The position numbers were made by a program, and so were the translations under genes. DNA of 64,000 bases from Prorocentrum cordatum (lineage: Eukaryota), in NCBI GenBank assembly GCA_963575745.1, contig CAUYUJ010000303.1, forward strand, positions 186,001 through 250,000. The letters run 5' to 3'. The notes beneath the pieces were generated by a model that had not been told where the DNA came from, ran no database searches, and saw only the letters and a list, made by a program, of their open reading frames with translations. Positions 16,211-64,000 of this stretch are shown here, piece by piece (the first letter of the stretch is position 1; every line of letters starts with the position of its first letter).

Positions 16211-16230
16211 TACCTCCTTCTCCTCCTCCT

Positions 16231-26698: not shown

Positions 26699-26705
26699 TT
26701 GTTCA

Positions 26706-44869: not shown

Positions 44870-45692
44870 TCGGGCGTGTCCCTTTACAGGGGGAACAGGG
44901 GGAATTTGAAACAGTAATAGAATAAACAAATAGTCTGGGGACGATGTTTTGATCATGTTGGGGGCATTTGTTTAGAATTTCGATGGTATTTTCAATCTTT
45001 CGTCCAAAATCGGACTGTAGTCGAGGGCGCAAAACACGCCCCTACCCTGGTTTACGAGGCGCTGTGTGCTGAACCTCCTGTGGGCCGACAGGGTAAACCC
45101 TGCGTGATGTGCCGCGTCCTGGCGGCTCTAGGCTCTGGGACTTCCCAGGAGGGTTACAGACCACGCACTTGTAACCCAGGGCAGGGTCGTTATTTCATCC
45201 CTCAAAAAATCGGCCTGCAGGGGGACATGCCAGAATTGACGGTAGGCGTTGCGCTTCAGGACCGTCGTCGTTTTCCATTCAGGGCTCGGGGAGGGGCTCT
45301 GGTTTTCGGGCCGCTCCCTCGGATTGGGTTACGTCGGGTTTGTCCCTCTACAGTTGTGGAAGTCGAATAATGGAGAGGAAGCTTGCTGCCAGATAATTTC
45401 CAGATGTTTAAAAGGTGTGTCAGACATGTTTGAAATATGTTTCAAATTATGGGTGAAACGTTTTTAGGACATGCTTTACACGTGTTAAACACATGTTGTA
45501 TTCAATGATAGGGTTGTTAGAGTGTCCATTGTCATGGCATCCACAACTCTACAGGAATAATATTCGAACATAGTCAAAACATAGTCCGGGGACGACTTTT
45601 TTGTTACCTCTGTTGACTATGTTTGGTGTATTTGTTTTTTGGTAGTTTTCATTTGTCGCCCAAAATCCGCTGGTAGGGGGGACACGCCTCAC
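44870..45692. mobile_element. Two related copies of MITE family D (GGCGTGTCCC...GGGACACGCC ends); the second is interrupted by MITE A
   Basis: GTCGGGCGTGTCCCTTTACAG (44870) resembles GTCGGGTTTGTCCCTCTACAG (45333). Both share ATAGTC-GGGGACGA and an ...ACACGCC end. Confidence 0.55.
45354..45546. mobile_element. MITE family A copy 3 with perfect 8-bp TSD
   Basis: CTCTACAG(45346-53)|TTGTGGA...TCCACAA|CTCTACAG(45547-54). Confidence 0.92.
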
Positions 45693-46845
45693 CTATGAGT
45701 TGGGTCGGCAAAACTCGCTTGTGGCCGAGGCTCGCCGTGGCCAGAGAAGCACATTTGCTCCTCACTCTGCGCTTCTTGTGGCATTCTGACTGCACGGGGG
45801 GCCGCAAAAGTAGCGACACCGTCGAGGAGTTGGGCCTCTCCGCCGAGAGCGCGGACGTGGTGAAGTGGGGAAGATGAGAGCAGTAACCACGCCGACGCCG
45901 CCCGCTGCCGACGCCGCCCGCTCAAGGGGGCGCGGTACACGCGGACGTGCCACGTGGCCTCCCCAAGCCGTTCCGCCGGAGGGCGTTGCGTTTCAGAACC
46001 GTTCTCTTGTCCCCACACCTCCCAACGTTCAGGAGGGGAGAAAACACAGACACAATTAATCGTCGACTCCCAGGAAGATATGGGAAAATATGGGAAGTGG
46101 GGAGGACGACAATTACCCAGAAAATATGGGAAAACATTGGGAATCCTCTTATTTGTGTGTGTATTTATTTGTGTGTCCCAGGGCCCCTTCAAAGGTGTTG
46201 AAAAAGCCGTACCTGCATCTTCCTCGGCGTTCTGCCTCTGCTCTCGGCTAGCCCCCCCCGGAGCGTCAAACAACGGTTCGGGATGAGGAGCCAGTCCCCA
46301 GGAAGGGATCGAGAATTCCAGTGACCCCGTATTGAAAAGTCAAGCCATCCGATCTCGAGGTCGTTGCTTTTGGGAAACGTGTTGCCCCACATCTGCTGGT
46401 GACGGAAGACAGGCGGCGGAGATAGGCGGGTTGGTTGGTTGGCGATTTGGTCGGTTGGGTGGTCTGGCCGGTTCGGCTGGCTTTCAGGTGGGATGGCTCG
46501 GGCAATCGGATGCGACTCCCTCTCCACTCACTTGCGCCCCTTTCGGTTTCAACTTGCACGTGTTGCAGTCGACGCCGCGACGTGCGCGGCAGGAGCTAGA
46601 CGCAACGCGCCCTGCGCGCGAAATTGCGAGATGCCGTTATCGCCCTAGCCTTACGCAAATGTGTTTTGAAAGTTGCGTTCGTGCTCAGAAGCGGTGCGTG
46701 CTCTTCGTTTCGGAGGGGGTCCGCTTGCGAGAGGCCAGCATGTCGCTATCGCCGCATCGTCGCGCAGGTTTCTTCAGATTGTCGTTCGCACTCCCATTTG
46801 CGCGCGGCGCATGCTTTTCTTTTCCGGGATCGTCGGAAGCAAGGT

Positions 46846-47053
46846 TGTGTACAAGAGGGCGAAATTGTGAAAAGAACCCGTCTCATACCCTCATCTCTAC
46901 TTCTCACTCTCCTATTTGCTCGCCTTATTGGCTCAAGGTGCTGGAGGAGATCAGGACGCTGGTCGCACAGGAGGAAAAGATCCCTATCTTTCCCTCCTTC
47001 CTATACCTACGGATCAGGTTCTCCGTACCTTTTGTACTCTAACCCCATACACA
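46846..47053 (+). repeat. Probable 5' LTR of the copia element (208 bp)
   Basis: Terminal inverted hexamers TGTGTA...TACACA directly followed by a PBS. No second copy in the window, so the left boundary is inferred. Confidence 0.6.
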
Positions 47054-47066
47054 GGTTATCAGCCCT
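47054..47066 (+). promoter_or_regulatory. Primer-binding site of the half-tRNA (copia/Ty5) type
   Basis: GGTTATCAGCCCT immediately after CA. It has one mismatch to GGTTATGAGCCCT, the complement of a tRNA-Met anticodon arm. Confidence 0.75.
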
Positions 47067-47272
47067 TCAAGATCACCATTCACCGAACCCTGCGTCGCGA
47101 TCTCGCTCGCAGCCCCGATGGATCCCCCGCGGCGCATGCGCCGTAAGGGATCCTTCGCGGCTCAGCGTCCGAGTTGTCCGACGGCGCGTCGACTCGGTGA
47201 TGAGTTGGAGAGCCTTGGAGGTGACCGTGTGGGTGTACCAGATACTCCCCCCCCAACTCCGACGGACCCGAA

Positions 47273-50200
47273 GTGCGTCTTGCGGCTGAGCTTCGCCGCC
47301 TCGCCGCCCACGGAGGGACAGGAAAAGGAGTAGGAGCAGGCGTTGGAGGAGTTCACACGCCTACCTTCGACCCTTCCTCTCGTCTTCCTAAGCCGGGAGC
47401 AATCCCTACTGCGTCGGGCGCAAGCCCCACTGGTCCCGATACTCCTGGGCGTTTCCGCGCATCCCGCCGTTGGAACAGTGGCTCTGGCCCAGCCAGCCCT
47501 GCCACCATACCCGCGTCGGCGAAAGTGGCGGCATTCGAGGAGCTCGGCAGACCAGTGGCGGCACAGCCGCAGACGCAGTATCTCAAGGTATCATCATCTC
47601 ATCCGACACCGCACACACACGGACACGGCCTTAGCCGCAGCTCGCCCATGCGAAACCTTCGTGAGGTCACAGGTCCCTACGACGAGAACAGGTCGAGCAC
47701 GCGTGCGGCCTCTCGGGGGGCAGACGCCCCTCACCTCTTTCTCTCAGACGACCTGCCGGCGGCTACGCCCGCTTCAGGTGACCTCGCTGAGCTGCGAGAC
47801 CAGGTTGAAACCTTCGTGTCCAGGCAGTACTCTGGACTGGTGCAGAGCGTTCAGACGAACGCCGCACACACTGCTGCTCTTCGGTAAGAATTCGACGGCG
47901 CCTTAGCGATCATAGATTCCAGGATCGCCAAAGATCGCCGTGTCCTAGGAGAGCTGCAGTTTCAGGTTGACCGCGAAGTGTCACACTCAGGTGAACGGTC
48001 CGCGACGGTCGAGCACCTGCGCAACTACCTCGCGCAGATGGAGCAGCAGCTTGTCGTCGTCCGCGACACAGGCGTTTCTGCGGTCAGGATCTTGCATGGC
48101 GAAATCCATGATCAACTGCGCAATCGACCCTCCCCCCCCTCCGACCGAGGCGCACGACCTCGGCGACGTTCACTCCCGGATCAATGATATCCGATCACAT
48201 GTGGAACACACTACGGCTACGCTTCGTGCTGAAGCATGTACCAATTCGTCGACCCTGACCGGGATGTTGCAGAATACTGAAAGAGTCATCGCTCAACGGC
48301 TTGACGCGACCAACGCTGTTGTGCAGCCCCTCAATGACCGGATCTCTGTGATCGAGCAGCGTTTACCTGGAGTACAGGGCGCCCTGGCAGAGTTGCGTGT
48401 TGGACGAGCCCAGACTGGCCAGCTGGGATCTCCTCCTACGGTTTACGATTTGGCCCCCTTCGCTGACAGGTGGCAGGAAGTTTGGAAGTCGGCGGACCAC
48501 GCGCAGCCTGTGCTCTCCCAGGCCCTTCGAGACAGAGTTGCTGAAAAAAGGTGCGTGTTGGGGGGTGTCTCGCACGTCTGGAAAGTGAAATGGAAGCGCG
48601 CAACGTCCGTCTCCGAGCTTGCGAGCAGAGACTTGATCGGTATTCCCAACGCTCTCGGGACACTGACGAGGAGATCACTTCGTCGAAGCACGATCTACGA
48701 TCTGAACGCCAACAAGTTGACCAAATACACGAGGACATGACGAACTGAACGAATCTACTGATCGACCACACCAACGACACTACACTTCACCCTCAGCCAT
48801 CGCCAGGCTTTGACAGGCCGACGGCAACGTCCGCTGAAGCACCGCACGCTGCTGTCGGACAACCAAGACGTAGGTCACCAGGAGCAGCCTCAGCGGCAGC
48901 TTCTGCACAGACACGCCACGTGTCTCCAGTGCGCGCAGAACCAACTAAGGGCGGTGTACCGGTACCCTCACAACCACTGTCTGCAGTTTCGGTTAACAGT
49001 ACTACTCCGATCAAGGAGTCCGACTCCGTACGAGTCCCTATCTTGCCCAAAATCATTCAGCTTCTTGAGCGGCAGCAAATGGTTGGGAATAATTTCGGAG
49101 CCGCTTCAGGGCGTCCCTCTATAGCATACGCCTTCCCCTGCGTCGCCGAACAACCCGGATATGCCTTTGAAGACTTGCAAGGCAGCGGTGTTTTTAAGAG
49201 CATCGACTGCAAGCTCGCAGCTGCTCTCAGTGACATCTTGTCCTCTGAATTGCGCTTCAAGATCAAGCTCATCGAGGCCAAGAAACACAGAGCTGGACGA
49301 ACGTTGAAAGGTCGCCAGATCTACTGGCACACCCTACGGTCCTACAATGTGACCGAGGTCGACGATGACCTTCACGATTTTGAGCGCCTCGTGGAATTGA
49401 GGGTGAGAGACGAAGATCTGCAACGATTCACTACTGAATGGGACGCTCTATTGTTGGACTGCCGAGAGGCACCCGACCACAAGATCCTCGAATCTCTGTT
49501 TCGCATGGGTGAAACAAGATATGTACGAGTATCAGAGAATGAAAATGAGCGACCCACATCGTACCTACGAGTGGCTTCGTCAACGAGTTCTCGACGTTCT
49601 GGAAATGAAACAACTCGAGAAGAACCAGAACAAGCTACGGTACGAGTATGAGAATCTCTCTCAGGTGAACATCTGCGCTGCATGGAACACAGGCAACTGT
49701 CGGGATGGGGATCTTTGCGCGGCTTTGCATACATACTCCAGGGAAGGCAGACACGACAGATCCCCCCGTTTTTCGAACTTCGAACGCTGGCGGCCACGCC
49801 CGCCGCAGCGTGTCTGCCCCTGCGAGTTCCAAAAACAAGCCAGGCATGAAGCACGTCTGCTTCGAATTCGCCAAGCGCAGTTCCTGCGCGCGCGGTGGCA
49901 AGCGCATTTCCCGTACATGGCGCAGCGCAGTTACTTCGTCCAGAATAATTGTCACAAAGGTGACAAATGCAAATGTGCCCACCTCGCTGCTGGTACGAAG
50001 ACACCTGAAAGGGGCCCCAGCCGTCCGCGGAATCCCAGTCAGGACAGCCGCTGCCGCCCACCATCCCGCGGATCTGGGAGCAGACGCTCTCCACAACGCG
50101 GGGGGTTCTGGAACGCGCGGGGCTCGTGCAAACGCCGACGCGACCGTTCTCGATCATCCTCCCGGAGATTTACAACCTCTCGAAGCCAGTCGAGAGGTCG

Positions 50201-50654
50201 ATACGATAGATCATCACGATCACCCTCCCGAGGCAGAGACGGACGTGGCGGAGGACGTGGCCGCGACAGATCATTAGGCAGCGACAGAGGACGTGACCGA
50301 CGCTCCATGAGCCGCAGTTCATCTCGTGGCTCTCCTCGGTATCGCGCACGTCCCCCTGCTATTGGTCGCCGCCCACGCCGCTCCGACCGCGGTTGCGTCA
50401 TCCGTGACAAGACCCTCATGGCCGTGCACAAGGCCAAGAATGCATGTACCACGCCACGACGTCGGGCACGTTTCGACACAGACAACGTGGAGTACTTCCC
50501 GTACACTGTTTCCAGCAAGGCCACTCTCGACACGTGGATCGACAAACCGAACGAAGGCGACATTGTCAACATGCCAGACCCGCTCCCACAGTGGTGGTGG
50601 AAACAGAGTGGTCAAGCTCTTCAATATTGCCAACGCGAAGCTCAATTATGGTAG
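47273..50654 (+). pseudogene. gag: gag-like region: coiled-coil, capsid-like block, three CCCH fingers, RS-rich tract
   Basis: FKSIDCKLAAAL...GRTLKGRQIYW...DLQRFTTEWD block, CAAWNTGNCRDGDLCAALH (49674-49730), SRSQSRGRYDRSSRSPSR. Position between PBS and protease. Confidence 0.7.
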
Positions 50655-50681
50655 AAGGACCTCCAGGACTACCTAGTATCT

Positions 50682-53600
50682 GTGGCAACACCCACTGCGA
50701 TTCCAGGTTCTCTCGATTTCGCTACGGAGTCACTTGGGACGATCCAGGAGTCGGTGGCGACACCTACTGTCGACCCTCCACGGTCGACAGCCGCCCTGAC
50801 CCGCTTCTGGGTTCTCGACAGTGGCTCTGCACACCACATCAAGGACAAGAACGAGCTTACGCAGACCGAATCTGATCGCATCTCTATCCGCGGGGAACAT
50901 TCTCTGGAAACGTCCAATGGTTACCGTGCTGTCAACGAGCACTGCGATATCGAATTACCAGGGGTAGGCTTACGGAGTTCAGCTTTTGCCCTGCCTGATT
51001 GTCTTTCGTTGCTCTCAGTGGGACAACTGATTGAAGTTGATGGTTTTCGGCAATTTCGGGACCCCGACCTGGGCTGCCTGCTCCAGGATCCGGGGGGCTA
51101 GTGGTGCAAAGCTCCCGTCAACAACCGGGTACCAGAACTACCCCTCGACGATCTTGGAAAAAATACCACCACCACGATTGTGCACTTCCACAGCACCACG
51201 ACGTCGCAGGCGCAAGCGTTCTCCTTCACGCTGCCTTGACACATGTTGGTGCTGCAAGGACCCAGCGGAGTTACCACCGACATCCGAACCACGGCTCCAC
51301 CGCGAGAATTGCCCGAAGAGACAATTCAAAGTTTCGCCCTGTGGCTCGATTACGTCTCAGCAGCAATGTTCATCTCACTCATGCGGGGGGCCTGCAAGCA
51401 CCTGCGGGGATGCCCCAGGCACAGTTCAGGCAGATCCCATCGATCCGATCGACACCACGTCGTCCTACCTCGAGGATCTGCCGGTGTCGACGCATGCTGA
51501 GCCCCACTCCGATGGTGACCCTGTTCGTCCGAACCGCCAAAAGAAGTCCATCGATCCCATGCGCTACATGACCCACAGCCCTAAAAACCCCGACCGTGAG
51601 GTCTGCTCTCGCACCATGGCGCAGAACGCCCCGTGCAGACGACAGCGCAAGCCGCATCCGCAGGCAGCCCCCACGGACGAGGACGCTACCTACGAGGCTT
51701 TCGTGCCGAAGAAATTCGGGGAGGCGCTGACTGCCGACCACGTTGTCTTGGCCAAAGACGATGCCGCTGACAAACATGGCGACAAGTGCGCACTCGTTTC
51801 CTCGACAGATACACCGGCATCATCATGGCATATCCAGCCGTGCACAAAGACGCAGCTACAACGAAGGCATCTTTTCAGCAGTTCATCGCCGCGAACGACG
51901 ACGTGAAGCATATCTATACAGATAACTCCGGAGAGCTTTTGAAAGCGCGCCGCCAGCTGGGATGACGACGCGACGCTAGTACTCCTCATCGTCCACAGAT
52001 GAATGGACTGATCGAGCGCATTGTCAAGATCGTCATTCTGGGTACTCGAGCTGTGTTACACATGTCTGGGCTGGGACACGAGTGGTGGAAGGAGGCCATG
52101 CAGGCCTTCTGCTGTGGACACAACTTTGTGCATGTATCCACTGGCGTTGCTGCCCTCAGCGATGAGCACGCAGAGAAGACAGCGCACGAAATCCGATTTG
52201 GTGAAAGTGTTACCGGGCACTGCATACCTTTTGGTGCTCGGATCTTTTGGAAATGCTTCAATCCCGAGATCAACGATGAGACGGCGAAGTTTGAAGAACA
52301 TATTCGGGAAGGGTAGTTCATGGGTTACCATCTACACTCGGGTGGACGTTTGTCTGGAGATTATCTCGTCTTGGACACGGCTACATACGCCAAACACCCT
52401 GACGGCGACTTGTGTCACGTGCACAGAGTCAAGGACATCATCATCCCGGACGGTACGTCCACCTTCCCTGTGAAGGGCGGTACGCCCCCTGGGCGACACA
52501 CCTTCCCCTGACCTACCGCTCACCTACCCGACCGAGTGGGGGGACCCCTCTCTCATGCCGCCAGACGCCAGTCCAGCTGCTGCCCATCCATCAGCTCCAG
52601 AAGTCGCTGCACCAGCGCCAGAGCTTGTTTTTGGGAGCAGCGTGGATAATGCATCATCCGGCACATCCGTACCCCGCGAAAGAAGCTTTTCCGTCCGACG
52701 GACGATGTGATACATATTCCTGTTCCTGTCGATCAGCTTGATGTCACAAGGGACTTCGAGACGACTTCTACTTTCCCAGGCGAGAGTGTCTTTCGAGACG
52801 TTTGGGACGGTTTTAGTGCCGCAGACCACCGTGAACTTAGTGAGCTCCCCAAGATGTTGCCAGTCGGCGAGATGGTGGTCTGCGGTCGTGAGACACGCGT
52901 TCAGGCTACTACGCGCCCAGACCACATCCTTCCCGAACATTGGAAGACTTTGTCCCGAGGCCAACAGAAGAGAGAAATGGACTACGCAGAAGACATCAAA
53001 CGAGCCCGCGAGGTACGTGAGCGGGCTGCCCTTCGGGTGTAGACACGACAGGACCAACGAGCTAAAATCTTTCGCACCACAACGGCTGGTGGACTTACAT
53101 GGAATACCGTGGAACGCCGCATTACCTATGATATGGACAGCGGAGCTGTCATTCGAGACGAGGGCGTCAAGGGTGTGACAAACAAGGAGATCCTGTATGC
53201 CAGAATTCCTGGTGGGCCACGCGACATTACCACAGTATTACATTACCGCCTACCCTAAACATCGCCTGCTGGAGTTGCACGTTCTCTGGTATTGATCGAC
53301 TGTGAGGGGGGCTACGACTTTGGGCGTGTGAACCCGCTCAACCGCAAGTTCACCCTGCCGGTGGCAATGCCCACTATGCCACGTGGGCCCGATTACACAC
53401 AGGTACACAGAGAAAAGCGACCTGCGCCATCATGGACACGCCCTGCCCTTGTTACACGAAATCTGAACAAACGCGAAGTTGCTGCTGAGCCACGAGCACA
53501 AGAGGCCCTACGCAAGGAATACGAACGCCTTGAGAAGAAACAGGCATGGATGATAGAAGCCGCTGCTGAAAAAGAAGACGTTGAGGTAGAAGCGATTCGT

Positions 53601-55620
53601 ACTGGGAGGAAAATTCACTTCTTCAACCAATTGGAGCTCTCATATGTGAAACATGAAGAACTTACTCCGGAACTACGCAAGTTCAAAAGGCCGCGTGGTG
53701 GTTCAGGGCAACACTGGCAAAGACGAGACTGGCTTAGCTGCCATTTTCGTTGACGCGGCGTCCAGTGCGTCACACATTGAGGCTTCTAAGCTTTGTGACG
53801 CCACCGCTTTATTGCCAAACTCCGGACGGCCAGATTGACCCGGTCGGTACGTGGATTACGCTCCCCAAGTGGCGTCAGCTTGACTCCTGGGCTAAACGCA
53901 GGAACCCAGTGTGCCGACTCCGCTTGGCACTCTACGGACACCCCTTGGCAGGCGTGTTCTGGGAACGCAAGTGTCGCACGTGCCTGGGGGGCGTTGGTTT
54001 CGAGCCCATCCCTGGCTGGGAATGCGTGTGGAGACGCAAGAAGTTGGGCCTGATACTCTCCATATACGTGGACGACTTCAAGCTTGCGGGACCCGCCGCC
54101 AATCTTCAGGCCGGCTGGGACCTGGTCCGCTGGAGCGGCATTGAGCTCGATCCGCTTACTCCGTACTCTCAATACCTTGGCTGTGGACAACAGGCTTATG
54201 ACGTTCCGCGGAGCGTCTTCGACAAGCGGATGGCTACCATTCGCCCAATGTTACCCAACCACAGCGAGAACTATTATCATACAGCTAAACAAGTCCGCGG
54301 TATCCGACATGATATGCTTGGCTTTACCGACCAATGCATGAGCGCTACCTTGAGTGCGCCTCTAAGCTTGCCAAAAATGCAGGCTCACGCCGAAAACGCT
54401 CCGACTCCCCGAGGGCTTTGCGATCTACATCGCTTGGTTCCTCTGGGTCGGTCGCGAGACCCGCTGGCGTTCTCAACGCTCGGTCGCGATCGTCCAGCCG
54501 AGCTGGGTCGATCGAGAGACCCACTGATCTTTCGCGTATTACGACTGTCACTAACGACGACCTTCCCGCCGCAGAGACACCTGGTATCGAGGGCACTTCC
54601 TTGACTGAGTCCGATTACTCTGACGAGGGCATCCTCGGCCAGGACGCGGCGAGCGTGTTGATGAAGATTCTCTACCTGGCACGATGCTGTCGTGTTGATC
54701 TATTGCACCCGGTGTGCATGTTAGCCAGAGAGATTACCAAGTGGAACACTACGGGTGACAAACGCCTTCCTCGGCTCATCTGCTACCTCAAGACGACTCG
54801 CACACATTGTCTAGATGGACGGACAGGTGATACTCAGGACCAGTTGTCCATCATGCTCTTCGCTGATGCCTCCTTTGCCGACTGCATTTCCTTGTCTCAG
54901 TCCACCACAGGCATCTTCGTGGCGTTCGTTGGGCCAAACACATTCTCCCCCGCCAATGCCGTGTGCAAGAAACAGACGGTCGTCTCTCACTCCTCCACGG
55001 AGTCCGAGATCGTCGCTCCTTGTTCTGCACTACGACTTGAGGGTCTTCCACTGCTTTCCTTTTGGGAGGCCGTGGTGGAGGTTGCCAGAACCTGCAGGGA
55101 GAAGACCAATTGCATAGGTTGCTTGGGATGTGTCGCTACGACGATATGTCCAACCCTGGCCGCCAAGCAGCGGCGGCGTAAGACGCCGCCTCGCAAGGCG
55201 GCCCTTCAAGGAGATCCCCCCCTAGCCGGAGGCAGCTCCCGCTGCAGTCGGAGACGCGCGCGACTCCCAAGAGGCGCACGATTTCCCGCGAAGGTATCTT
55301 GTTACACGTGGACCCAGAGCCGGCTCCTACGAGCAGCTCGCCTGAGGTGCACCTTATTGTCCTGGAGGACAACCAGGCCGTGGTCAAGATTGGCCAAAAG
55401 GGGCGTACACCAGCTCTGCGTCATCTTCATCACACACATCGTATCAATTTGGATTGGATATGTGAAACATGCCTTTTCGATCATGTCGAGCTTAAGTATG
55501 TAGGTACTAAAGAACAGATTGCCGACATGATGACCAATCATTTTGATCCCAAGAAAGCAGATCTCTGGAGGGATTTATTGGAACTATCGCTTATCTTCCC
55601 CTTCGCTCCCATGCAGTGTC
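50682..55620 (+). pseudogene. pol: copia pol: aspartic protease, integrase, reverse transcriptase, RNase H (frameshifted)
   Basis: PR: WVLDSGSAHH (D at 50817). IN: HSPKNP..VC, LTADH, IYTDNSGEL, PQMNGLIER. RT: KGRVVVQG, WITLP, ALYGHPLAG, SIYVDDF (54065). RH: FADASFA, SHSSTESEI, EDNQAV, QIADMMT. Confidence 0.95.
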
Positions 55621-57183
55621 CTCCGAGGGACCCTTGGCGACCGTTGAGAGGGCCCAGGAGGCCAGACGGTCTACCTCACATTGCCGAACTTCCGAAGGTT
55701 GATGGATGCGAAGAGGGTTGTGATATACTACTCACTGGCCGTGAAATCTGGGGCGCGCCAGGTACACGACGCGGACAACAGTGCGTGGGGCCAAAGGAGC
55801 ACGAGGGACTGCATGCATGTACCATATCGGCGCCCCTGCCGGGGCTGGATCCTCTCGCCAACCTCGTGCACGGGCCCGTTCGCCACGCGGTAGACGCTCT
55901 AGTCAGTCCTCTTCGTCCACCCTCGGTCCCGCCCACTCTAGGACGTTTGTTATGCGATCACGTTGCTCCCGCAGCTGTTTTACGACTCGAGCAACTACGC
56001 TTGCCAGCATCTTGCTCGCACCGCGCGCACCTACTATTAAGGGGAACGGTTCCGCCCCCGATTTTCCCTCATCTGAGATGCCCGAGGTCCCACCTCTCCA
56101 CCTTGTCGGCCGGGCCGTCGGCGGCGCCGTCCGCTGGGGTCCCGAGGCCGATGATGATGATCGCGTGGGCCCTGCGCTTCTGCTCCAGACAGGCCGCAAT
56201 CGTGAAGGCGACGAAGGATACCACTTCCTTCATCAGCTCCGCCTAGAACAGCGCCGAGTACCGCTTGCGCGCGCCAGACGACTCCGCGCTCGTCGAGACC
56301 ACCCGCGCCGCCACGCTGGACGTGACTGGGGCGGTCGGCAACAGCATGGAGCCTGTCGGCGGCAACGCCTACTGTGAGCACAACACGGCTACGGTGACCT
56401 CATGGCTTTCGATGTTGAAAGCCATGGGTACGCTGTTCAGGAGGCTACCCGCAACTTCCCTGACCATCTGAGCGCCACGATCCCTGGTCGGGCTGGTTCT
56501 CGAATGTGCCCTCCAATGGACCTCGCCACGCAAATGCTGGATGCCGAGTGGCGGATCTTGCATAATGATTGGTCGACGGTCGGGTGCGCTATGCTTAGCC
56601 AGTGGTCGGAGGATACGGTCAAGGAAACGACATATCTGTATGGGCGACTACTTCATGCCGCCAGGCCTCTATGTGGAAGGATTAATGATTCCGAATCACG
56701 CGCGCCCTCTTGACCGAGAGCAAGTGAAATTACCAGTGCGGGCTCCTGCCTTGGCCAGGACGTCCGCTGTGCCGGGACAAATCGGCCGTGCTGTGGAGGA
56801 CCACCACTACCTCCAGCAAAACAAGAAACGCGCCCGAAAGCTCATTAATTACTTGGCTGACGAAGCGTGGCGGTGTTGGAGGGATTGGTTCTAGTCCCCA
56901 GACGGTGGCAACACCTTCTGATCACCCTGCCGGCTGGGAACCTTTCCCGCGCCTCGGCATGCAGCAATAGCAGCCCTATGAAGAGGGCGGCCTTCGCTCG
57001 TCCGAGTTCCCGGAAGGAGACGAGCCTGGCGCTACTCCAGGATCCATGTTGGGCTCATTGGAATTACCCCAGGTGAGATACAGCGCGTTCTGTGGTGGTC
57101 GATTGGTCAAAGCCCTTCTCTCCGAGCGAGGCTGGACGGGCATGGTACAAGAGGACTTGGGACCTGCAGGCCATGCGTACAAA

Positions 57184-58150
57184 TGGACTTGTCTCTACAC
57201 GGATTCCACATGGATCATGCACAAGAAGAAGGGTGACAAGGCCGAGGACTTCAAGCGCTACGTCGGCCTTGTACCGCTCTTTATTCCATGTCTCAACAAG
57301 GCAGAGCACATGGGCGGCGCCACGCTCGAGCATCTGGCAACTATGATCCGCGACGACATCATGATGCGGGCGTTCTCGCACGAAGATTACAAGGAATTCT
57401 TCAAGCAGAACGACACACCCGTCGGCCAGGGTTTGATCTTATTGCCAGAAGCCGGTGGCGACACCCGCTGCGATATGCAAACCCTTCGTGCACGTGCTGC
57501 TGCGGTGCAGGAAGAGCGTATTGCACAAGTTCTACAGTTGCAGACCGCTGCCACGGTCGAACAGCGCATGATGATCGGTACGATTCGTCAGGCGCGAGCC
57601 TTACTGCACTGCACTGACAATGCTCATGTGGCAGAGTGGCGCAAGATCAATGAGCAGATCTGGGAATATTGGAGCACAGCGTCCCCTGCATATGTCAAGC
57701 AACGGCACGATTGCAGAGGCCTTAATGCTTTCGTTGTTTGGGGTGTCAATGATATCGGCTGCGCCAGCAACAACCAACAGTGGTTAGACGTACGGCGCCA
57801 TGCTGATCGTGCTCCAAAAGGACTGGACGGCCCGAGAACAACCACATCAAGTACGAGAACGGCGTTCCAGAGCACATGCCTACACACGTGGAGGTTGATG
57901 TGTCACGATTCATTGACGTGATGCAGTCTTTTCGATGCCCTGCAGTAGTGGGCCCAGGTTTGTCCAAACAATGAGTCTTGCACCCCAACTTCGACTACCT
58001 GACATGTGACCTCACACGTCACATGAAGGCCAGAGGTATCGCTATTCTGCCTGCGGACCAATGGATCAACTCCTACGACACGCTATCTCCTACGGCTTGG
58101 CACGCCGAAGTGAACAGTTACAACATGGCGATGATGACGACTCAGTGCAA
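57184..58150 (+). pseudogene. SGNH/GDSL-hydrolase-like domain in the cargo
   Basis: Blocks in the correct order: LYTDST (57193-57210), GGATLEHL (57313), FVVWGVND (57730-57753), AWH (58095-58103). Blocks I and V are non-canonical. Confidence 0.5.
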
Positions 58151-59541
58151 CGACGCCGTTTGCTACCGCATTTTCTGCGATGTTATTTAATCATTACCTT
58201 ATCAGCCATATCCGTTTCGACCACCACTAGTGAAGGCCTTGACGGGTTCCCAGGCATACTCCCAGGCCAAGGACATATCAGCGGCTCTGGACTTCCGCAA
58301 CAGGATGACGGATAATTGGAAGCGATACCACTGCCTTACCACGTTGATGATTCAGGCCGCCAAAGAGATGGCCCAATGTGCTTGGATGGCTTCATGTGCC
58401 AGCGGCAACTTACTGCTATCCATGCCGGTGGCAGCGCCCGCTGATGAGCAGGTTCAGCAACGTCGCCCCGTTCCAGGGACGTCAGGAGAGCCTCCATCGG
58501 CATCGCCAGCACCACATAGCACAGATGATGACCCGTTCTGCCCGGCATACGAGGAGCTGTGCTACAGCCTGATTCTCTTGATCGACGCGTTCCCGGGCGT
58601 TTGGGCATGTTACGATTCCGATGGAAGGAAGACACTACTGTCGCAGCCCAACCTCCATCCCATCGACATGCATGCACTCACCTGTGCGGTCTACGAGCAG
58701 CTCGTAGACAAGATCGAGGCTAAAGTGGAGGCAACTACGGCAAACACCAATCGCATCATCCGAGAGCGCGCGTTGCTGGCGCCTCTCTGTGATGGGCCTC
58801 GACTCGACAATGCGGATACCATCCAGAAGTGCAAGGGTTACCGCGCTCTGACCGCTCTGGACCGCATCGATCCGCAGGAAGCCCCCCCGAGAGCACCGCC
58901 GGCACCGCCGCTCGACGCACCGCCCTCCGCGATCGAGCCAACGCCGGCCGCGAGGCCCGCTGCAGTACCTTCTGCAGCCGAACCTGCGACGACGCCGGCG
59001 CCTCTGCCCAGTCCGAACAAGCCGCCACTGCCACCGGGCCCACCACCGAAGACCATGCCGGCCACGCGCTCTGTCGCAGGGCCGCCTGCCCATCCCCCAT
59101 CGGACGCAGACATGGCTGCGGTGCTGCAGGCAACTCCTGCTGACGACGTTCCTACGTCCGTTCAGCGTTTGGACAGAATGCGTGTGCTTCCATGGCAGGA
59201 CTGCTGTGAGCGTTCTTCCCATGAAGAGCCAAGTCAGTTCACTATGTTCGACAATACATGCACTCTTCTTGAATATAAGCTCCGTGCGCAACAGCCAGAT
59301 GAGCATCATCACGTGCCCCCATCCACTTCGGGGCACGGGCGCGCCAGGAGGCATGCAGTGCATCGCTGACAAGGTTTGGGCGGCTCAGTTGGACTACGAC
59401 GATTGCGTGATCACCCACGCGCCTGATCTCGACCATTCTGGCTGCTTTCCTGAATGTAAATGGATTTCTCTACCACCATACAACGAAACGCCGCATGGTC
59501 CCGACCTGATATTGACAAAATATATTGGCCGCCCCAACTAC

Positions 59542-60356
59542 ATGAGCAAAGATATCACGACTATGCTTCGCCACATCTCGTATAGCAAGCACTTCAGCAT
59601 CGATCAGTTCACTGATCGGCGTATTAATATATGGAAAAGGCGCTCAAATGCTAGGTGGAAATGCACCAGCACATGGCGTTCCTTCGAAGAAATGGTGGAG
59701 TGGGAATTCTACAACCGTCGTTATCGCAGCAACGGCCCATCCGATGAAACAGCCATTGAGCACTTCCTTAAAGACGGCATGGACTGGGAAGCCTGGACTG
59801 ATTATTACCCGATCTTTATCCTTCGTGCTTTACAGACGCACATTGATGCAGAGATGAATAGGGTTGAGATCTACGGTGAACCATTATCCGCCGGGAGCAA
59901 TCCCCGCGGCTTCGATGGGAGCAGCGTTATTGCCATGCGTTGTGTAGGCGGACATAGTTCGGTCAATCCGCGTTCCCAGCCGTGGAACATGGGCTGGGAA
60001 AGTCTACAGTGGACCGACGTGAAATACCGCCACCACGGCACGACATACCGTGCTTGGAGCAACATTTTGACGCATGGAATCATCCCAGGATATCAAGACA
60101 CTACTCAGCGAGACAACAGCATCAGGAGGAACCGCGCACCGAAGCCTTCTACAGTTCGAGTACGTACATGAGGGGTGCGCAGCCTAATCCCCACACGTTT
60201 GTCCCACCATGCAAGTTCAATCCTTGGAAGAACGAGGTGAAGATCGTGATTGACATGTATATTGCCACACAATCTGGCTGCAGATTCTGGCTTGGCGCCC
60301 AAGGCGCTATCGTTGCCGAGGACGCGGTTCCTCCCGCGGCAATTGTGACCACTCGC
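59542..60356 (+). pseudogene. tpt1: Tpt1/KptA-family RNA 2'-phosphotransferase (ADP-ribosyltransferase fold) domain in the cargo; one frameshift near 60135
   Basis: MSKDITTMLRH (cf. LSKxLSxxLRH), MNRVEI (cf. KQRFxL), MRCVGGHS (cf. IRANQGHS), HHGTTYRAWSNILTHGIIPG (cf. HGTxxxxWxxIxxxGL), RxR-TEAFYS, EVKIVIDMYIATQSGCRFWLGAQGAIVAEDAVPPAAI (cf. IxIDxxxAxxxGxxFxxSxNGVILxxxIPP). Confidence 0.85.
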
Positions 60357-63300
60357 CATTGCAAGGGGGACCGCGACTGCGGCAAACAGTTGCGGCCTGC
60401 GAAGGGGCGACGTTGGGAATGCCCGCCTGTGGAGTGCCAGCGCGCACCAGTCAGCAAATGTGAAATTTGCGCTCCGCCTCGGCAGCAGTCACGACAGGAG
60501 CAGGTTGCCCAGGAGTTAAAGGCTGACATGATTGCCGACCCTCCTGGGATTGCTCCGCCATCCCCGTCAGACGCGCACCAACCTGCGCCGGCGGCAACGC
60601 CTGCTGCGAAGGCTTATCCTGTGGCGTATTCGCCGAAGCCTCTGCAGCAGACACTGGTAGCCTAAATCAGCGGTTCCGAGCGACCTTCTGCCCACGAGTC
60701 TGCCTCTGCATCTTCGGCACAGCAACCCCTTGCTCCCACGCTGGGGGCAACCACTGCTGGCCTTGCCGCAGTGACAGCGGCACTCATTCACTCGGCAGAA
60801 GAATTTGCCGACCCCGATACGTTCGACGAAGAGGCCATTGTCCGTGCTAGGGCTGGCATGAGTACATACAACCAGCAGGACAAGGATTGGTTCATCTCGA
60901 TGGCGTGCTGCAGCTCTTTGCTCAGGCCCATCGCAGCAGAGCTGACGCAGAGAGACTGGGAGCCGACGTCCTATCTTCACGGGTGTTCGCGTCGGCGACT
61001 TCATATTCGTGAAAAATGAGCCAACGCAATTGCTACCACTACGACAATCACTACCCCAAGGGCGATTATCGAACCAAAGTTCGCATGAACAAGTGGCGCA
61101 TCTACGGCCCCGTCATGCACTTCGGCGTCTTTGAGAAGTTCTTCGCAGTACAGATACCGATACTACACTGAGGATTGCGTTGGGTAAACATCTGGCACTG
61201 CGACGAACATTTGCCCCCCAAGAGCGTCATTTACGCCATGCCCATTCGCGCTGACAAGATTGATGGCGCCCACATGGAGGTGGCTATGAGGGGGCCGTCA
61301 TCGTGCAGCTTCCAGATTGCTGGGTATGCTCAGTCCCAAGAGTTTCCCTACTTCGGTACCCCCTCTCTTCAGCGAGTGCGTATCCCACGCGCACCGCCTC
61401 GACGCGCCGCTCCTCGGACCCCGCGATGCGACCAGGAGCCGGTGGCAACGCCCGCTGTGGATCAAATGGAGATCGACGAAGGCATTCGGCAACAAGTGAT
61501 TGACACCACCGCCGAGCGCTCAACCATCGTCTCTGACATTTCCGAAGTTGTGGCAAGCGATGAACCGAGGGCCGCCAATGACGCCATGGAGGCTGAGATG
61601 ACAGCCGAGATCCAGGCAGATCAGAACTCTGGTATTTCTCCTTTTGAATGCATCCTTGATCCACCAGAGAAAGCCCAGAACCAGTAGGATTACCGCCCGA
61701 AAGATATCAACAACTGGACGACATAATCGGACAGGCATATGGTGTAATACTGGACATCGGCACCGTTGATGGAGTCGCCGATGTTCCAGCGAAAACTGGT
61801 GATCGAGATGCACGGCGGTCCCGAACTGTTCATACAGGACAAGATTGAATCATATCTGATACTCCAGCTTCGTTTTGGGACCGGGTCAGATATGCACAAG
61901 ATTTATTACATACGCACTCATACATGGGCACGGGATCTTCCCGTGTGTCTTGCAGAGCACTTCTTCAAGAAGTTGTTGCGATTCCTCGACCCCGAGTCTG
62001 TGCAGGGTACCACTACGGGGATCTTCCATTGGATCTCCAAAGTATACCAGCACTTTCTGCTGGAGGGCATAGAAGAGCTGACGACATTCAACAAGGTCTC
62101 CATTAATGCCCATCATCCAGCCCTCACAGCGCTCCTATCGTTCGACAGAGACTGTGAGGAACAGCACGGATCACCAGGAATCCATCTTTGGCAGGAGCCG
62201 GTGGCAACTCCTGCTGCGCCTGGCCAGGCTGAACCAGGCGCTGCCATGCCCGACGCTCCCGTCGAGATACCACAGGACCCAGGCAGTGTTGCTTCGGCAG
62301 CACCAGACCCAGAAACGATAGTGCAGGTCCTGGCACAGCAGAAGAAGCTCGACCGCACGGAGGGTGACAACGAGACTACCCTCCAGGCCGAAGCTGCGCG
62401 CATCCGCGCAGAGTTGGCCAAGACTTGCGGGAACCTAGACGTATCGGATATCGGATCGACTGAAAACACTGGATTGCCCGGCGATGGGTTGTCGCTCATT
62501 GAGATCCAGGGGGTCGGACGATCGGTCGCTTCCCGTGCCGCCGCCGAGCTTAATCGAGATGCAATGAACCAGCTCGGTCATTCTTGCTTCTGGAGCCGGT
62601 GGCAACACCCGCTGGGGCAGCCATGGGGATCTCGTTTCGACCGGGGCCCCTGAGTCACTCCAGCATGACATCCCTCGATGCAGCACTTGCAGTCGCTTCC
62701 TGTCCCTGGGCGTTGTTACTGACAATGGCACTCTGTTTGACATATGCTGGCAATACAGCACCTCTGCAGGTGCCACAGGAGTTGGCGGCGCTGGGGCTGC
62801 CGACCTTGCGCACCTGCAGGAGCTCAACCAGTGAGTCAGGAACGACCTGTCCCACAACGAGGTGGCCCGCCTCATCGCAGAGTGCACGAAGATCTACACC
62901 GGGGGGCAGCGTTCGGCTATCAGTGAGCAGCGTAATAAATTGAGGACAGTGGCGAAGAAGGCCGAGGAGAGGTACAATCGGTGGTGCGATGCGGGTTGCC
63001 CACCTGCCCGCTTTTGCCGGCTCGTGGGAGAGCCCGACGACAACGGCCCATTGTACCACCCCCACCGTAACGTCCTTCAGCGCTTCCTCGATGAATCTCG
63101 ATTCCACCGCCAAATGACCGGAGCCCGTGCGGCTATCGGCAAGGTGCCCTGGACCGAGGATGACATACATGTGTGAGGCTTGCAATATTCTCTATTCGCA
63201 GCCAAACACTTGGCCTCGCTGGTCGTAGGAATTTGAGGTTAAATGGAGGTAGAATGGCCAGAAGCACTACGCAAGAACGCGGTCTGGTCACGACCGCAGT

Positions 63301-63438
63301 TCCCCGTGGGGGCGGCACTTATGACCGGGCCACGCGTCGGAATCTTGCCAAAGCTGCCTGTGTCGGACCTGCCCTGGGATCAAATCGCCATGGGGGGAAG
63401 GGCTCAGGGGTGGGAACCGATCCTGATACCCCCCCCCC

Positions 63439-63464
63439 ACACACACACACACGCACACACACAC

Positions 63465-63495
<31 letters not shown>

Positions 63496-63532
63496 AACAC
63501 ACACACACACACACGCACACACACACACACAC
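63439..63532. repeat. (CA)n/(CACG)n microsatellite
   Basis: Direct reading. Confidence 0.95.
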
Positions 63533-63789
63533 GATGCCATGACGCCGCCGCCTCGCGCTGACCCTGGCGACACTGCTGGTGCCCGCGCCACCAGCGCGCT
63601 GGCAGCGATGCCCGCTGGGCGGCGCGGCGACGCCGCCGCCGCCCCGCACCCGAGCGGCTGGCAGCCGGCCGGCAGAAGCGCTGGCGCCCGCGCCCCAGCG
63701 ACGCCCCCGCGGGCCTAGCGGGCGCGCACCGCCGACGAGTACGCAGCGCACTGGCGCCACAACCTCGAGGGCAGCCGGTGGGGCCCCAG

Positions 63790-63910
63790 GTGCTGGAGCT
63801 ACCACAACAACTTCTGGATGTACATCGCGGAGAACAGCGATGAATTCGTGTGCATCCGCGACCTGCAGTGCAATCCTCGATTCTACAATTGGCACGCGCG
63901 GACCGCGCGG
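63790..63910 (+). CDS. Probable host-gene exon, product unknown
   Basis: CCCCAG|G acceptor, stop-free CWSYHNNFWMYIAENSDEFVCIRDLQCNPRFYNWHARTAR with strong GC3 bias, |GTAACT donor. Confidence 0.6.
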
Positions 63911-64000
63911 GTAACTTGGAATCCACTGCCCCTCTGTTGTGAGGCCGTTGTATAGGAGAGGGAACAGATGACAGAGTGTTTACACAGTTTTGAGGAAGTA

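What the first reader, a model, noticed from the sequence alone, without database searches (positions are those of the whole stretch)
59542..60356. Copia retrotransposon carrying a Tpt1/KptA NAD+-dependent RNA end-processing enzyme
Seen: every Tpt1/KptA motif in order (LRH, second Arg, RxxxGHS, HGT, xR, C-terminal ID..A...G..F....G.I....VPP), with a long insertion in the N-lobe. It lies in an intronless coding tract directly 3' of a copia pol, on the same strand and equally decayed. Known: Tpt1 uses NAD+ to remove RNA 2'-phosphates via an Arg-His-Arg-Arg tetrad, and some members also ADP-ribose-cap 5'-phosphate RNA/DNA ends or remove terminal phosphates. It is not part of the standard copia gene set. 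Inference: this is an element-encoded accessory enzyme, not a host gene. I know of no description of this pairing but cannot check the literature.
Basis: partly seen in the sequence, partly recalled or inferred. Interest (0 to 1): 0.92.

Follow-up and report, generated by a model that had tools for sequence, protein, structure and literature searches.

The report
Tpt1-like enzyme in dinoflagellate repeat
A broken copy of a many-times-repeated dinoflagellate gene ends in a distant relative of the RNA-repair enzyme Tpt1 and lies just downstream of a copia-type retrotransposon, so a jumping gene may carry its own enzyme for trimming or capping RNA/DNA ends, but the link between the two is not yet proven.

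Summary
Window 59542-60356 (+) encodes a divergent Tpt1/KptA-like domain. Support comes from sub-threshold Pfam PTS_2-RNA hits in four family members, an hhalign match to E. coli KptA (E 2e-5), and a template-free model whose best PDB and viral-library matches are Tpt1/KptA. The SK-x6-RH, xR-GGHS, HHGT and R-x-EAFYS residues are conserved across relatives.

It is not a free-standing gene. It is the C-terminal third of a decayed ORF of at least 1,200 aa ("ORF-X", about 57022-60665; three frameshifts and one in-frame stop). Relatives exist only as fragments, from a Prorocentrum cordatum gene model, marine metagenomes and one EukProt set. The whole 44-64 kb stretch is repeated in one DNA run, so this is not an ordinary single-copy host gene.

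Carriage by the copia element is unproven:
- ORF-X starts 1.4 kb after the last pol motif (55595), on the same strand.
- No LTR pair lies in the window.
- ORF-X summed depth is 3-10 times lower than the gag/integrase regions.
- Only two single-contig deletion joints (47065->60668, 49463->57018) tie the copia 5' half to the ORF-X borders.

I put "accessory gene of a large copia-like element" near 0.45. I found no printed description of this pairing.

The parts
59542..60356 (+). Tpt1/KptA-like domain. The N (RNA) lobe carries a long insertion. The C (NAD+) lobe is split by a frameshift at about 60105-60126.
   Evidence: Pfam PTS_2-RNA sub-threshold hits. hhalign against E. coli KptA E 2e-5. Fold matches to Tpt1/KptA. 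Motif coordinates.
59545..59574 (+). SKDITTMLRH: Ser-Lys, then Arg-His of the tetrad, with the same S-to-R spacing (8) as E. coli KptA SKFLSFVLRH.
   Evidence: In family columns R is 21/21 and H is 21/22. Roles of Ser10/Lys11/Arg18/His19 are from PMC6333775 (passages).
59932..59961 (+). AMRCVGGHSS: the third tetrad residue (Arg, 59938-59940) and the GHS motif.
   Evidence: hhalign aligns it to CIRAVQGHS of KptA. R is 11/12 in the family column.
60031..60045 (+). HHGTT: the HGT NAD+-lobe motif.
   Evidence: hhalign aligns it to YHGTA of KptA. The second H is 16/18 in the family column.
60132..60161 (+). PRTEAFYSSS: candidate fourth tetrad Arg (60135-60137), corresponding by position to ERHYVHLS of KptA.
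   Evidence: R is 14/14 in the family column. The correspondence rests on motif order only; hhalign left this stretch gapped.
60285..60335 (+). FWLGAQGAIVAEDAVPP: the C-terminal strand motif of the NAD+ lobe.
   Evidence: hhalign aligns it to FWQAENGVWLTS of KptA.
57022..60665 (+). ORF-X: one decayed coding sequence of at least 1,200 aa whose C-terminal third is the Tpt1-like domain. The frame path is mod 1, then mod 0, then mod 1, then mod 0. The N-terminal limit and the true stop are uncertain.
   Evidence: tblastn map. P0050 covers 57022-57429. P0051 (Prorocentrum cordatum) joins 57262-57708 to 57981-58388. P0029, P0032 and P0011 join 59055-59333 to 59317-59640. P0028, P0012 and P0004 join across about 60115. 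P0031 reaches 60572.
57708..57981 (+). Frameshift(s) inside ORF-X.
   Evidence: The P0051 HSPs change frame here.
58188..58190 (+). In-frame stop inside ORF-X.
   Evidence: P0051 aligns uninterrupted across this site (57981-58388).
59317..59333 (+). Frameshift inside ORF-X, upstream of the Tpt1-like domain.
   Evidence: The P0029, P0011 and P0032 HSPs overlap here in two frames.
60105..60126 (+). Frameshift inside the Tpt1-like domain.
   Evidence: HSP frame changes of P0028, P0004, P0012, P0038, P0039 and P0043.
59202..59541 (+). Conserved pre-domain (CCERS ... CFPECKW ... LPPY) that always precedes the Tpt1-like part in relatives.
   Evidence: Alignments A1 and A6. Motif coordinates.
53897..54184 (+). 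Copia-type reverse transcriptase core (YVDDF at 54065-54079).
   Evidence: Pfam RVT_2 E 1.4e-6, 28.5 bits (cut-off 31.6), residues 54-149 of window:53738-54601. Motif.
50817..55595 (+). Decayed pol tract: DSGS (50817), PQMNGLIER integrase-like motif (51993), RT, FADASFA (54859), LEDNQAVV (55362), LLELSLI (ends 55595).
   Evidence: Motif positions are. That they are protease, integrase and RNase H motifs of copia elements is my recollection. Pfam found no rve or RNase H match.
55596..57021 (+). Spacer of unknown nature between the last pol motif and ORF-X. The pol frame stays open to 56891 with two stops (56244, 56469).
   Evidence: No Pfam hit on either strand. Lowest depth of the tract, 56, at 56007-56673.
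47225..50654 (+). gag-side + strand ORFs with CCCH-type fingers and an RS-rich stretch.
   Evidence: Weak Pfam zf-CCCH E 0.004.
46921..46937 (+). Partial relic of the dinoflagellate spliced leader (10-nt core exact), about 290 nt upstream of the first gag-side ORF.
   Evidence: The leader motif itself is recalled, not taken from a tool.
60666..63176 (+). Further + strand ORFs downstream (60666-61019, 61172-61687, 61748-62653, 62835-63176). Also repeated in run X1. No family found.

Best explanation
Window 59542-60356 is the catalytic module of a dead copy of ORF-X. ORF-X is a multi-copy, intronless reading frame of at least 1,200 aa (about 57022-60665) in a dinoflagellate genome. Its C-terminal third is a divergent Tpt1/KptA-type, NAD+-dependent phosphate-directed ADP-ribosyltransferase.

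Most likely ORF-X is an accessory gene of a large copia-like retroelement lineage, with an internal region of about 13.6 kb (47.07-60.67 kb) ordered gag side, then PR-IN-RT-RH, then a spacer, then ORF-X.

In intact copies the enzyme would bind NAD+ in its ART-fold lobe. It would use the Arg-His-Arg-Arg cluster to attack NAD+ with a phosphate on a nucleic acid. That phosphate could be an RNA 2'-phosphate, a terminal 2'/3'-phosphate or a 5'-phosphate. The result would be to clean or cap ends of the element's own RNA, cDNA or primer.

Shown here: the domain homology, the conserved residues, the larger ORF, the multi-copy decayed state, and the position and strand relative to a copia-type RT. Inferred: membership in the copia element, enzymatic activity and substrate.
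For: Domain:
- PTS_2-RNA is the only Pfam family hit by the Tpt1-like parts. P0019 gives E 7.9e-5 (23.2 bits), P0012 2.2e-4 (21.7), the window frame 0.023 (15.2) and P0027 0.12. That is 4 of 15 family sequences scanned.
- hhalign of family profile A3 against E. coli KptA gives probability 77% and E 2e-5 over 112 columns. It pairs AIRxVGGHS with CIRAVQGHS, YLHHGTT with FLYHGTA, and FWLGxQGAIMTE with FWQAENGVWLTS. Profile A1 gives 72% and 3.4e-5.
- A template-free AF2 model of P0012 residues 1-219 was searched by Foldseek against the PDB. All 18 rows shown down to rank 21 are Tpt1/KptA/TRPT1; the best is 8tg4_A at E 1.3e-3.
- VIA-align over 48,161 chains gave only two chains with Z >= 8. They are mouse TRPT1 (Z 8.9, rmsd 2.9, 98 aa) and T. 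kodakarensis KptA (Z 8.9, rmsd 1.8, 74 aa). Other ARTs score 6.1 or less.
- In BFVD the top rows are viral KptA carriers: Botrylloides leachii nidovirus polyprotein (4.9e-4), Bodo saltans virus, Hyperionvirus and others.
- The catalytic columns are conserved across relatives of 31-86% identity: R 21/21, H 21/22, R 11/12, R 14/14.

Larger ORF and repeat:
- Relatives bridge every frame break of the window copy.
- There are 27 representative relatives, all fragments or chimeric models, and 29 in the second search.
- In run X1, 9,441 contigs lay on 44001-64000 at 80% identity or more, and all 30 bins were covered.

Linkage to copia:
- ORF-X lies on the same strand, 1.4 kb after the last pol motif.
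- In 12 of 12 bins of 1.33 kb from 47.1 to 63.1 kb, the + strand needs fewer stops or frame changes than the - strand.
- One X1 contig joins 47065 to 60668, the first base after ORF-X's stop region. One X2 contig joins 49463 to 57018, 4 nt before the first conserved ORF-X residue. There is no sequence similarity at the joint flanks.
- The only spliced-leader-like relic near the tract lies upstream of the gag side, and none lies before ORF-X.

Precedents:
- DNMT domains have been captured by Symbiodinium LINE and DIRS retrotransposons (PMC5890265, passages).
- KptA domains sit inside RNA-virus polyproteins (PMC9503650, passages).
- Copia copies of about 10 kb occur in S. microadriaticum (PMC5776459, passages).
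Against: - No family member reaches Pfam's cut-off of 26 bits. 11 of 15 scanned sequences gave no PTS_2-RNA hit, though most of those lack the C lobe.
- phmmer and a family profile against PDB sequences found no Tpt1. NCBIfam found nothing.
- The models are of low confidence (pLDDT 58 and 51). The N-lobe model matched nothing. hhalign did not align the N lobe.
- No LTR pair brackets anything in the window, even at word size 7.
- 55596-57021 has no recognisable function and the lowest depth of the tract.
- ORF-X bins have summed depth 79-322 in X1, against 293-522 over RT/RH and 1,150-1,807 over the gag and integrase bins. Many copia copies therefore lack a close ORF-X, or it belongs to another family.
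- Each joint rests on one contig with only 30-36 nt on its shorter side.
- No protein of 959-2735 aa carries the domain, though that search is weak.
- ORF openness of the spacer is not unusual for this genome: 205 of 414 background windows are as open.
- No complete copy of the domain was seen anywhere, so activity is inferred from conservation only.
Confidence: 0.45

Rival explanations
1. ORF-X, with its Tpt1-like domain, belongs to a different repeated unit. That could be another mobile element or a dispersed multi-copy gene family. It merely lies next to, or is nested behind, a 3'-truncated LTR-less copia copy at this locus.
For: - No 3' LTR is seen after pol or after ORF-X.
- A 1.4-kb unassignable spacer holds the depth minimum of 56 at 56007-56673.
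- ORF-X depth is 3-10 times lower than the gag and integrase bins.
- The P. cordatum models P0021 and P0051 show ORF-X pieces without any RT domain in the same model.
- The 'longer' search found no pol fusion.
Against: - Two independent contigs, in two runs, join copia 5' sequence to the exact borders of ORF-X. That is hard to explain if the two units are neighbours only here.
- Strand and composition (56-59% GC) are uniform from 44 to 64 kb, against 61-67% GC over 28-44 kb upstream.
- No transposase, second RT or other mobility gene was found in 55.6-63.2 kb.
Confidence: 0.35
2. ORF-X is, or derives from, a host gene family. One option is a lineage-specific RNA-processing protein amplified by retroposition or segmental duplication. 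The copy here would be one of its pseudogenes.
For: - Dinoflagellate genomes amplify host genes by retroposition (PMC11453091, passages). Relic spliced leaders occur elsewhere in this window.
- Catalytic residues are conserved among relatives down to 31% identity, which implies past selection for function.
Against: - Every relative recovered is a fragment, frameshifted or chimeric. None of the 27 or 29 hits covers the whole domain.
- No spliced-leader relic lies before ORF-X.
- No introns are seen.
- About 20-60 copies are suggested by summed depth against typical contig depth of 4-7 in X1. This is a rough reading.
Confidence: 0.12
3. The module has an ADP-ribosyltransferase fold but does not work like Tpt1. 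It might modify protein or DNA bases, as DarT, pierisin or scabin do. Alternatively the resemblance is convergent or due to chance.
For: - All sequence scores are sub-threshold.
- DarT, pierisin and scabin also appear in the fold lists.
- The N lobe is not confirmed by profile or fold.
- Large insertions are present in both lobes.
Against: - Tpt1/KptA entries rank above all other ARTs in three libraries.
- The Tpt1-specific features lie outside the generic ART core and are present and conserved. These are SK-x6-RH, the Arg before GHS, and the Arg after the HGT helix.
Confidence: 0.06

Closest known systems
Cellular Tpt1/KptA/TRPT1 RNA 2'-phosphotransferases (Pfam PF01885)
   Same: - Two-lobe motif order: SK-x6-RH, then R-x-x-GHS, then HGT, then R-x-x-x-x-x-S, then the G-x-x-FW...G strand.
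- ART-fold NAD+ lobe whose best structural matches are mouse TRPT1 and T. kodakarensis KptA (Z 8.9).
- The Arg-His-Arg-Arg positions are conserved.
   Different: - Below the Pfam cut-off.
- About 270 aa instead of about 180, with an insertion of about 100 aa in the RNA lobe and about 35 aa of inserts in the NAD+ lobe.
- The HVHL strand is replaced by EAFYS.
- It is the C-terminal part of an ORF of at least 1,200 aa.
- It is multi-copy and decayed, and so far found only in dinoflagellate-type sequences.
KptA domains carried by viruses: polyproteins of Botrylloides leachii nidovirus and a Beihai picorna-like virus, Bodo saltans virus (KptA-Nudix), sawfly nucleopolyhedroviruses, jumbo phages (PMC9503650)
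   Same: A selfish genetic element encodes its own Tpt1-type enzyme, in some cases embedded in a large polyprotein. These viral proteins are the top BFVD fold matches. The proposed role there is NAD+-dependent clean-up of phosphate RNA ends.
   Different: Those are RNA or DNA viruses. Here the carrier, if it is the copia element, is an LTR-type retrotransposon, and the passages read named no retrotransposon as a KptA carrier. There is no sequence-level similarity beyond the family motifs.
Retrotransposons that captured host enzyme domains: SymbioLINE-Dnmt and SymbioDIRS-Dnmt3 of Symbiodinium (PMC5890265)
   Same: Dinoflagellate retroelements carry an extra, intronless, multi-copy catalytic domain whose key residues are kept.
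   Different: The captured domain there is a cytosine methyltransferase in LINE and DIRS elements. That paper states that the abundant Copia superfamily lacks it. For those elements the element borders were shown; here they were not.
Dinoflagellate Ty1-copia elements (SmTCL1-4 of S. microadriaticum, PMC5776459)
   Same: A copia-type RT, large size (about 10 kb for SmTCL3) and high copy number.
   Different: SmTCLs are described with IN-RT-RH and flanking LTRs only, and no extra enzyme is mentioned in the passages read. I did not examine their supplementary sequences. No LTRs are seen here.

Membership tests
Tpt1/KptA (Pfam PF01885, PTS_2-RNA) | Score at or above the curated Pfam cut-off (26 bits) | tested here: not met
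   The best scores are 23.2 bits (P0019), 21.7 (P0012), 15.2 (window) and 12.8 (P0027). That is 4 of 15 sequences hit, all below 26 bits. I therefore file it as Tpt1-like, a divergent relative, and not as a curated member.
Tpt1/KptA (Pfam PF01885, PTS_2-RNA) | C-terminal NAD+ lobe with the ADP-ribosyltransferase fold of Tpt1 | tested here: met
   Foldseek PDB rows down to rank 21 are all Tpt1/KptA/TRPT1. VIA gives Z 8.9 twice, with the next non-Tpt1 chain at 6.1. BFVD tops are viral KptA proteins. hhalign gives E 2e-5. Caveat: model pLDDT is 58 and TM-scores are 0.30-0.39.
Tpt1/KptA (Pfam PF01885, PTS_2-RNA) | Arg before GHS (third tetrad residue) and the HGT motif | tested here: met
   hhalign aligns these columns to KptA. 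R is 11/12 and the H of HGT is 16/18 in the family.
Tpt1/KptA (Pfam PF01885, PTS_2-RNA) | Arg-His of the LRH motif and the fourth Arg (RxHVHL) | tested here: inconclusive
   Both are present and invariant in the family (R 21/21, H 21/22, R 14/14). SK-to-RH spacing is identical to E. coli KptA. However, no profile or structural alignment placed them on the Tpt1 residues.
Tpt1/KptA (Pfam PF01885, PTS_2-RNA) | N-terminal winged-helix RNA lobe | tested here: inconclusive
   The model of the window's frame has pLDDT 51 and Foldseek found no match. hhalign probability is 3% and covers only the GHS-HGT part.
Tpt1/KptA (Pfam PF01885, PTS_2-RNA) | NAD+-dependent transfer of RNA 2'-phosphate (or ADP-ribosylation of 5'-phosphate ends) | not testable with these tools
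   This needs a biochemical assay.
Ty1/copia LTR retrotransposon | Copia-type reverse transcriptase (Pfam RVT_2) | tested here: inconclusive
   RVT_2 gives E 1.4e-6 and 28.5 bits against a cut-off of 31.6, on a decayed frame. It is the only family hit there.
Ty1/copia LTR retrotransposon | Integrase upstream of RT | tested here: inconclusive
   No Pfam rve hit was found on 51031-52470 ORFs at E <= 10. There is only a PQMNGLIER motif at 51993, which I recognise from memory as integrase-like.
Ty1/copia LTR retrotransposon | Two long terminal repeats flanking the coding region | tested here: not met
   The window's self-comparison shows no repeat pair around 47-64 kb. A comparison of 43-47.3 kb with 55.5-64 kb at word 7 gave a best E of 0.3. 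A 3' LTR beyond base 64000 cannot be excluded.
Ty1/copia LTR retrotransposon | ORF-X lies inside the same LTR-bounded, transposing unit in other copies | not testable with these tools
   No genome is held. The JGI, IMG/VR and GTDB scans found no relatives. Logan contigs are about 300 nt. There are only two single-contig joints.

The most novel reading that the evidence does not exclude
A lineage of giant copia-like retroelements in dinoflagellates encodes its own NAD+-dependent nucleic-acid end-processing enzyme as part of its replication cycle. One possible role is stripping the terminal 2'/3'-phosphate from a cleaved tRNA fragment so that it can prime reverse transcription. Another is ADP-ribose-capping the 5'-phosphate of element RNA or cDNA to shield it from host nucleases. 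This would be the first retrotransposon known to carry a Tpt1-type enzyme.
Probability: 0.15. Interest if true: 0.85.

Novelty: new variant of a known kind. Interest (0 to 1): 0.62.

Why it matters
What Tpt1/KptA enzymes do outside fungal and plant tRNA splicing is an open question. They are found in taxa with no known 2'-phosphate RNA. Recently described activities are 5'-phosphate ADP-ribose capping and terminal phosphomonoesterase activity.

A divergent Tpt1-like module kept with its catalytic residues in a multi-copy dinoflagellate repeat, possibly a retrotransposon, would give that enzyme a new biological setting. It would add a second kind of captured enzyme, after DNMTs, to dinoflagellate retroelements. 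It also points to a testable step in retroelement replication or host conflict that involves phosphate-ended RNA or DNA.

If the linkage to copia fails, what remains is a new, lineage-restricted, fast-evolving Tpt1-like family fused to a large unknown protein.

Tried and rejected
- phmmer of the window frame, and a 27-sequence profile, against PDB sequences: no Tpt1 match at E <= 10.
- NCBIfam: nothing.
- N-lobe AF2 model (pLDDT 51): no meaningful Foldseek match.
- hhalign of the N-part alignment against KptA: probability 3%.
- Whole genome: none is held.
- Other copies with context: two JGI metagenome scans, one IMG/VR scan and one GTDB scan found pattern matches but no relative.
- Proteins of 959-2735 aa carrying the domain: none.
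- Expression: no RNA holder listed.
- LTR search: nothing.
- Poly(A) remnant in 55-64 kb: none.
- tRNA genes and Rfam families in the window: none.
- GC3 frame plot: too noisy to assign frames.
- Stop/frameshift dynamic programme: the tract costs 50 on the + strand, 98 on the - strand and about 130 when shuffled. Other parts of the window cost 46-71. The spacer is no more open than 205 of 414 background windows, so it is not decisive.
- Pfam on the ORF-X N-part, spacer and downstream ORFs: nothing credible.
- ESM Atlas on P0051 and on the pol C-end: no usable hit, with the best score 0.84.
- Earlier findings of this scan: none relevant.
- Literature searches for Tpt1/KptA/TRPT1/PF01885 together with retrotransposon, transposable element or dinoflagellate: no listed paper describes the pairing. 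The Entamoeba hit is only an expression table.
- Chance resemblance was considered and rejected because three independent kinds of evidence agree.
Full report
**The sequence at 59542-60356**

- The frame with codon start mod 3 = 1 reads MSKDITTMLRH ... DRRINIW ... RVEIY ... AMRCVGGHSS ... HHGTT ... GIIPG.
- The frame with codon start mod 3 = 0 reads PRTEAFYSSS ... VKIVIDM ... FWLGAQGAIVAEDAVPP.

Relatives that read straight through (P0012, P0028, P0004) place the frame change at about 60105-60126.

**Is it a Tpt1/KptA relative?**

Single-sequence evidence is weak.
- Pfam PTS_2-RNA scores E 0.023 and 15.2 bits against a cut-off of 26.
- There is no PDB sequence match and no NCBIfam match.

A search of 1.84 billion representatives found 27 relatives, and a second search found 29.
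- Scanned separately, P0019 (E 7.9e-5), P0012 (2.2e-4) and P0027 (0.12) hit the same single Pfam family. In all, 4 of 15 family sequences hit it, none reached the cut-off, and most of the misses lack the C lobe.
- A profile of the family aligned to E. coli KptA with probability 77% and E 2e-5. KptA was fetched as an annotated gene. The alignment pairs the R-x-V-x-GHS, HGT and C-terminal FW...G...T strands.

A template-free AlphaFold2 model of P0012 residues 1-219 is of modest quality (pLDDT 58). Its matches are nevertheless specific.
- Foldseek against the PDB lists only Tpt1/KptA/TRPT1 down to rank 21.
- VIA-align over 48,161 chains gives Z 8.9 for mouse TRPT1 and for T. kodakarensis KptA. 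Other ADP-ribosyltransferases score 6.1 or less.
- The viral library puts the known viral KptA carriers first.

Conservation supports the same reading. Across relatives of 31-86% identity the candidate catalytic residues are nearly invariant: R 21/21, H 21/22, R 11/12, R 14/14. The Ser-Lys pair sits at the same distance from Arg-His as in E. coli KptA. These are contact residues in the C. thermocellum structure (PMC6333775, passages).

The N lobe itself could not be confirmed by profile or fold. I conclude that this is a genuine but divergent Tpt1-like domain that fails the curated Pfam threshold.

**What the domain is part of**

Relatives extend the coding sequence in both directions.
- P0029, P0011 and P0032 run from 59055 across a second frameshift (59317-59333) into the domain.
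- P0031 continues to 60572.
- P0051, a partial Prorocentrum cordatum model, joins 57262-57708 to 57981-58388 across another frameshift and an in-frame stop (58188).
- P0050 starts at 57022.

The domain is therefore the C-terminal third of one ORF of at least 1,200 aa, which I call ORF-X. This copy is dead. The N-terminal two thirds match no family.

**Organism and copy number**

The window is 59.3% GC. It carries spliced-leader relics at 16232-16267 and 26679-26699, plus a partial one at 46921-46937. The leader motif is recalled, not from a tool.

Named relatives are Prorocentrum cordatum. However, 28 of 29 hits carry a EukProt 'Pyramimonas sp.' label, which I cannot reconcile with the rest.

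In DNA run X1, 9,441 short contigs lay on 44001-64000 at 80% identity or more, and all 30 bins were covered. Summed depth by region:

| Region | Summed depth in X1 |
|---|---|
| gag and integrase bins | 1,150-1,807 |
| RT/RH | 293-522 |
| Spacer (56007-56673) | 56 |
| ORF-X | 79-322 |
| Tpt1-like bins within ORF-X | 112-168 |

Every relative found is a fragment or a chimeric model. This is the picture of a repeated, decaying element and not of a working host gene.

**Is it carried by the copia element?**

Upstream there is a copia-type RT (RVT_2, E 1.4e-6, below cut-off). Protease-, integrase- and RNase H-like motifs are in copia order by my reading, and Pfam finds no rve domain. The last pol motif ends at 55595.

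For linkage:
- Same strand.
- A uniform excess of open frames on the + strand in 12 of 12 bins from 47.1 to 63.1 kb.
- Two deletion joints whose 3' sides fall on ORF-X's borders. These are 47065->60668 (X1) and 49463->57018 (X2), with no similarity at the flanks.

Against linkage:
- No LTR pair lies in the window.
- The spacer is unassignable.
- The depth ratios argue against linkage: ORF-X bins are far shallower than the gag and integrase bins.
- Each joint rests on a single contig.
- The openness statistic is not unusual for this genome.

No other copy with flanking DNA could be obtained. I rate 'accessory gene of a large copia-like element' at about 0.45, and 'separate repeat next to a truncated copia' at about 0.35.

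**Likely mechanism**

By analogy with Tpt1, an intact ORF-X would use NAD+ to ADP-ribosylate a phosphate on nucleic acid. It would then either remove the phosphate (2'-phosphate or terminal phosphates) or leave an ADP-ribose cap (5'-phosphate). This rests on PMC6333775 passages and on abstracts listed.

For viruses that embed KptA in polyproteins, clean-up of RNA ends has been proposed (PMC9503650, passages). For a retroelement the obvious substrates are its genomic RNA, its cDNA ends or a cleaved tRNA primer. This step is inference only.

**Novelty**

Four full-text searches found no paper linking Tpt1/KptA to a retrotransposon or to dinoflagellates. The closest precedents are DNMT-carrying Symbiodinium retrotransposons (PMC5890265) and viral KptA domains. 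The library lacks most subscription journals, and I did not read the supplements of the copia paper (PMC5776459).

Noticed in passing
16232-16267 and 26679-26699: Spliced-leader-like relics on the + strand. The first is two copies in tandem. This is typical of retroposed dinoflagellate genes and supports a dinoflagellate origin for the window (the motif is recalled).
   Followed up: partly
46921-46937: Partial spliced-leader relic (10-nt core exact, expected about 0.06 times per strand), about 290 nt upstream of the first gag-side ORF. It raises the possibility that this LTR-less copy descends from a trans-spliced element mRNA.
   Followed up: partly
46044-46191: A unit of about 150 bp with summed depth 9,677 in X1 and 2,278 in X2. 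About 50 contigs end on each side with unlike flanks, so it is a very abundant short repeat.
   Followed up: no
45320-45720 (and 243-433): At least 7 X1 and 3 X2 contigs skip about 400 bp here. The skipped piece holds a repeat that is 84% identical to 243-433. This is probably a small mobile insertion into the upstream repeat.
   Followed up: no
40480-42980: G-rich satellite with a unit of about 100 nt, some 24 copies at 80-90% identity.
   Followed up: no
9277-12510, 15792-16242, 24665-24830: Long imperfect GGA/GCA-type triplet repeat tracts.
   Followed up: no
56100-56550: Strong three-base periodicity (GC 0.82 at one codon position) inside the spacer. It is compatible with the extended pol frame or with a - strand ORF at 56069-56242. 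No family hit was found.
   Followed up: partly
47225-50654: The gag side is unusually long (3.4 kb). It shows CCCH-type zinc-finger hits (E 0.004) and an Arg/Ser-rich stretch in place of the usual CCHC knuckle.
   Followed up: no
relatives P0001-P0047: 28 of 29 hits are labelled 'Pyramimonas sp.' (a green alga) by EukProt. Yet the window has dinoflagellate hallmarks and other relatives are Prorocentrum cordatum. The label may reflect a mixed or mislabelled data set.
   Followed up: no
P0021 (Prorocentrum cordatum model, 776 aa): A gene model fuses an ORF-X N-lobe fragment (residues 86-200) to WD40 and cyclic-nucleotide phosphodiesterase domains. This is probably a repeat fragment swallowed by gene prediction.
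   Followed up: partly
54061-54105: This stretch lies just upstream of the YVDDF motif (54065-54079) and overlaps it. It is the only part of the tract matched by short contigs of a third organism's run (X4, 28 contigs). This reflects conservation of the RT active site.
   Followed up: no
26288-26387: A run of 100 N (an assembly gap), far from the finding.
   Followed up: no
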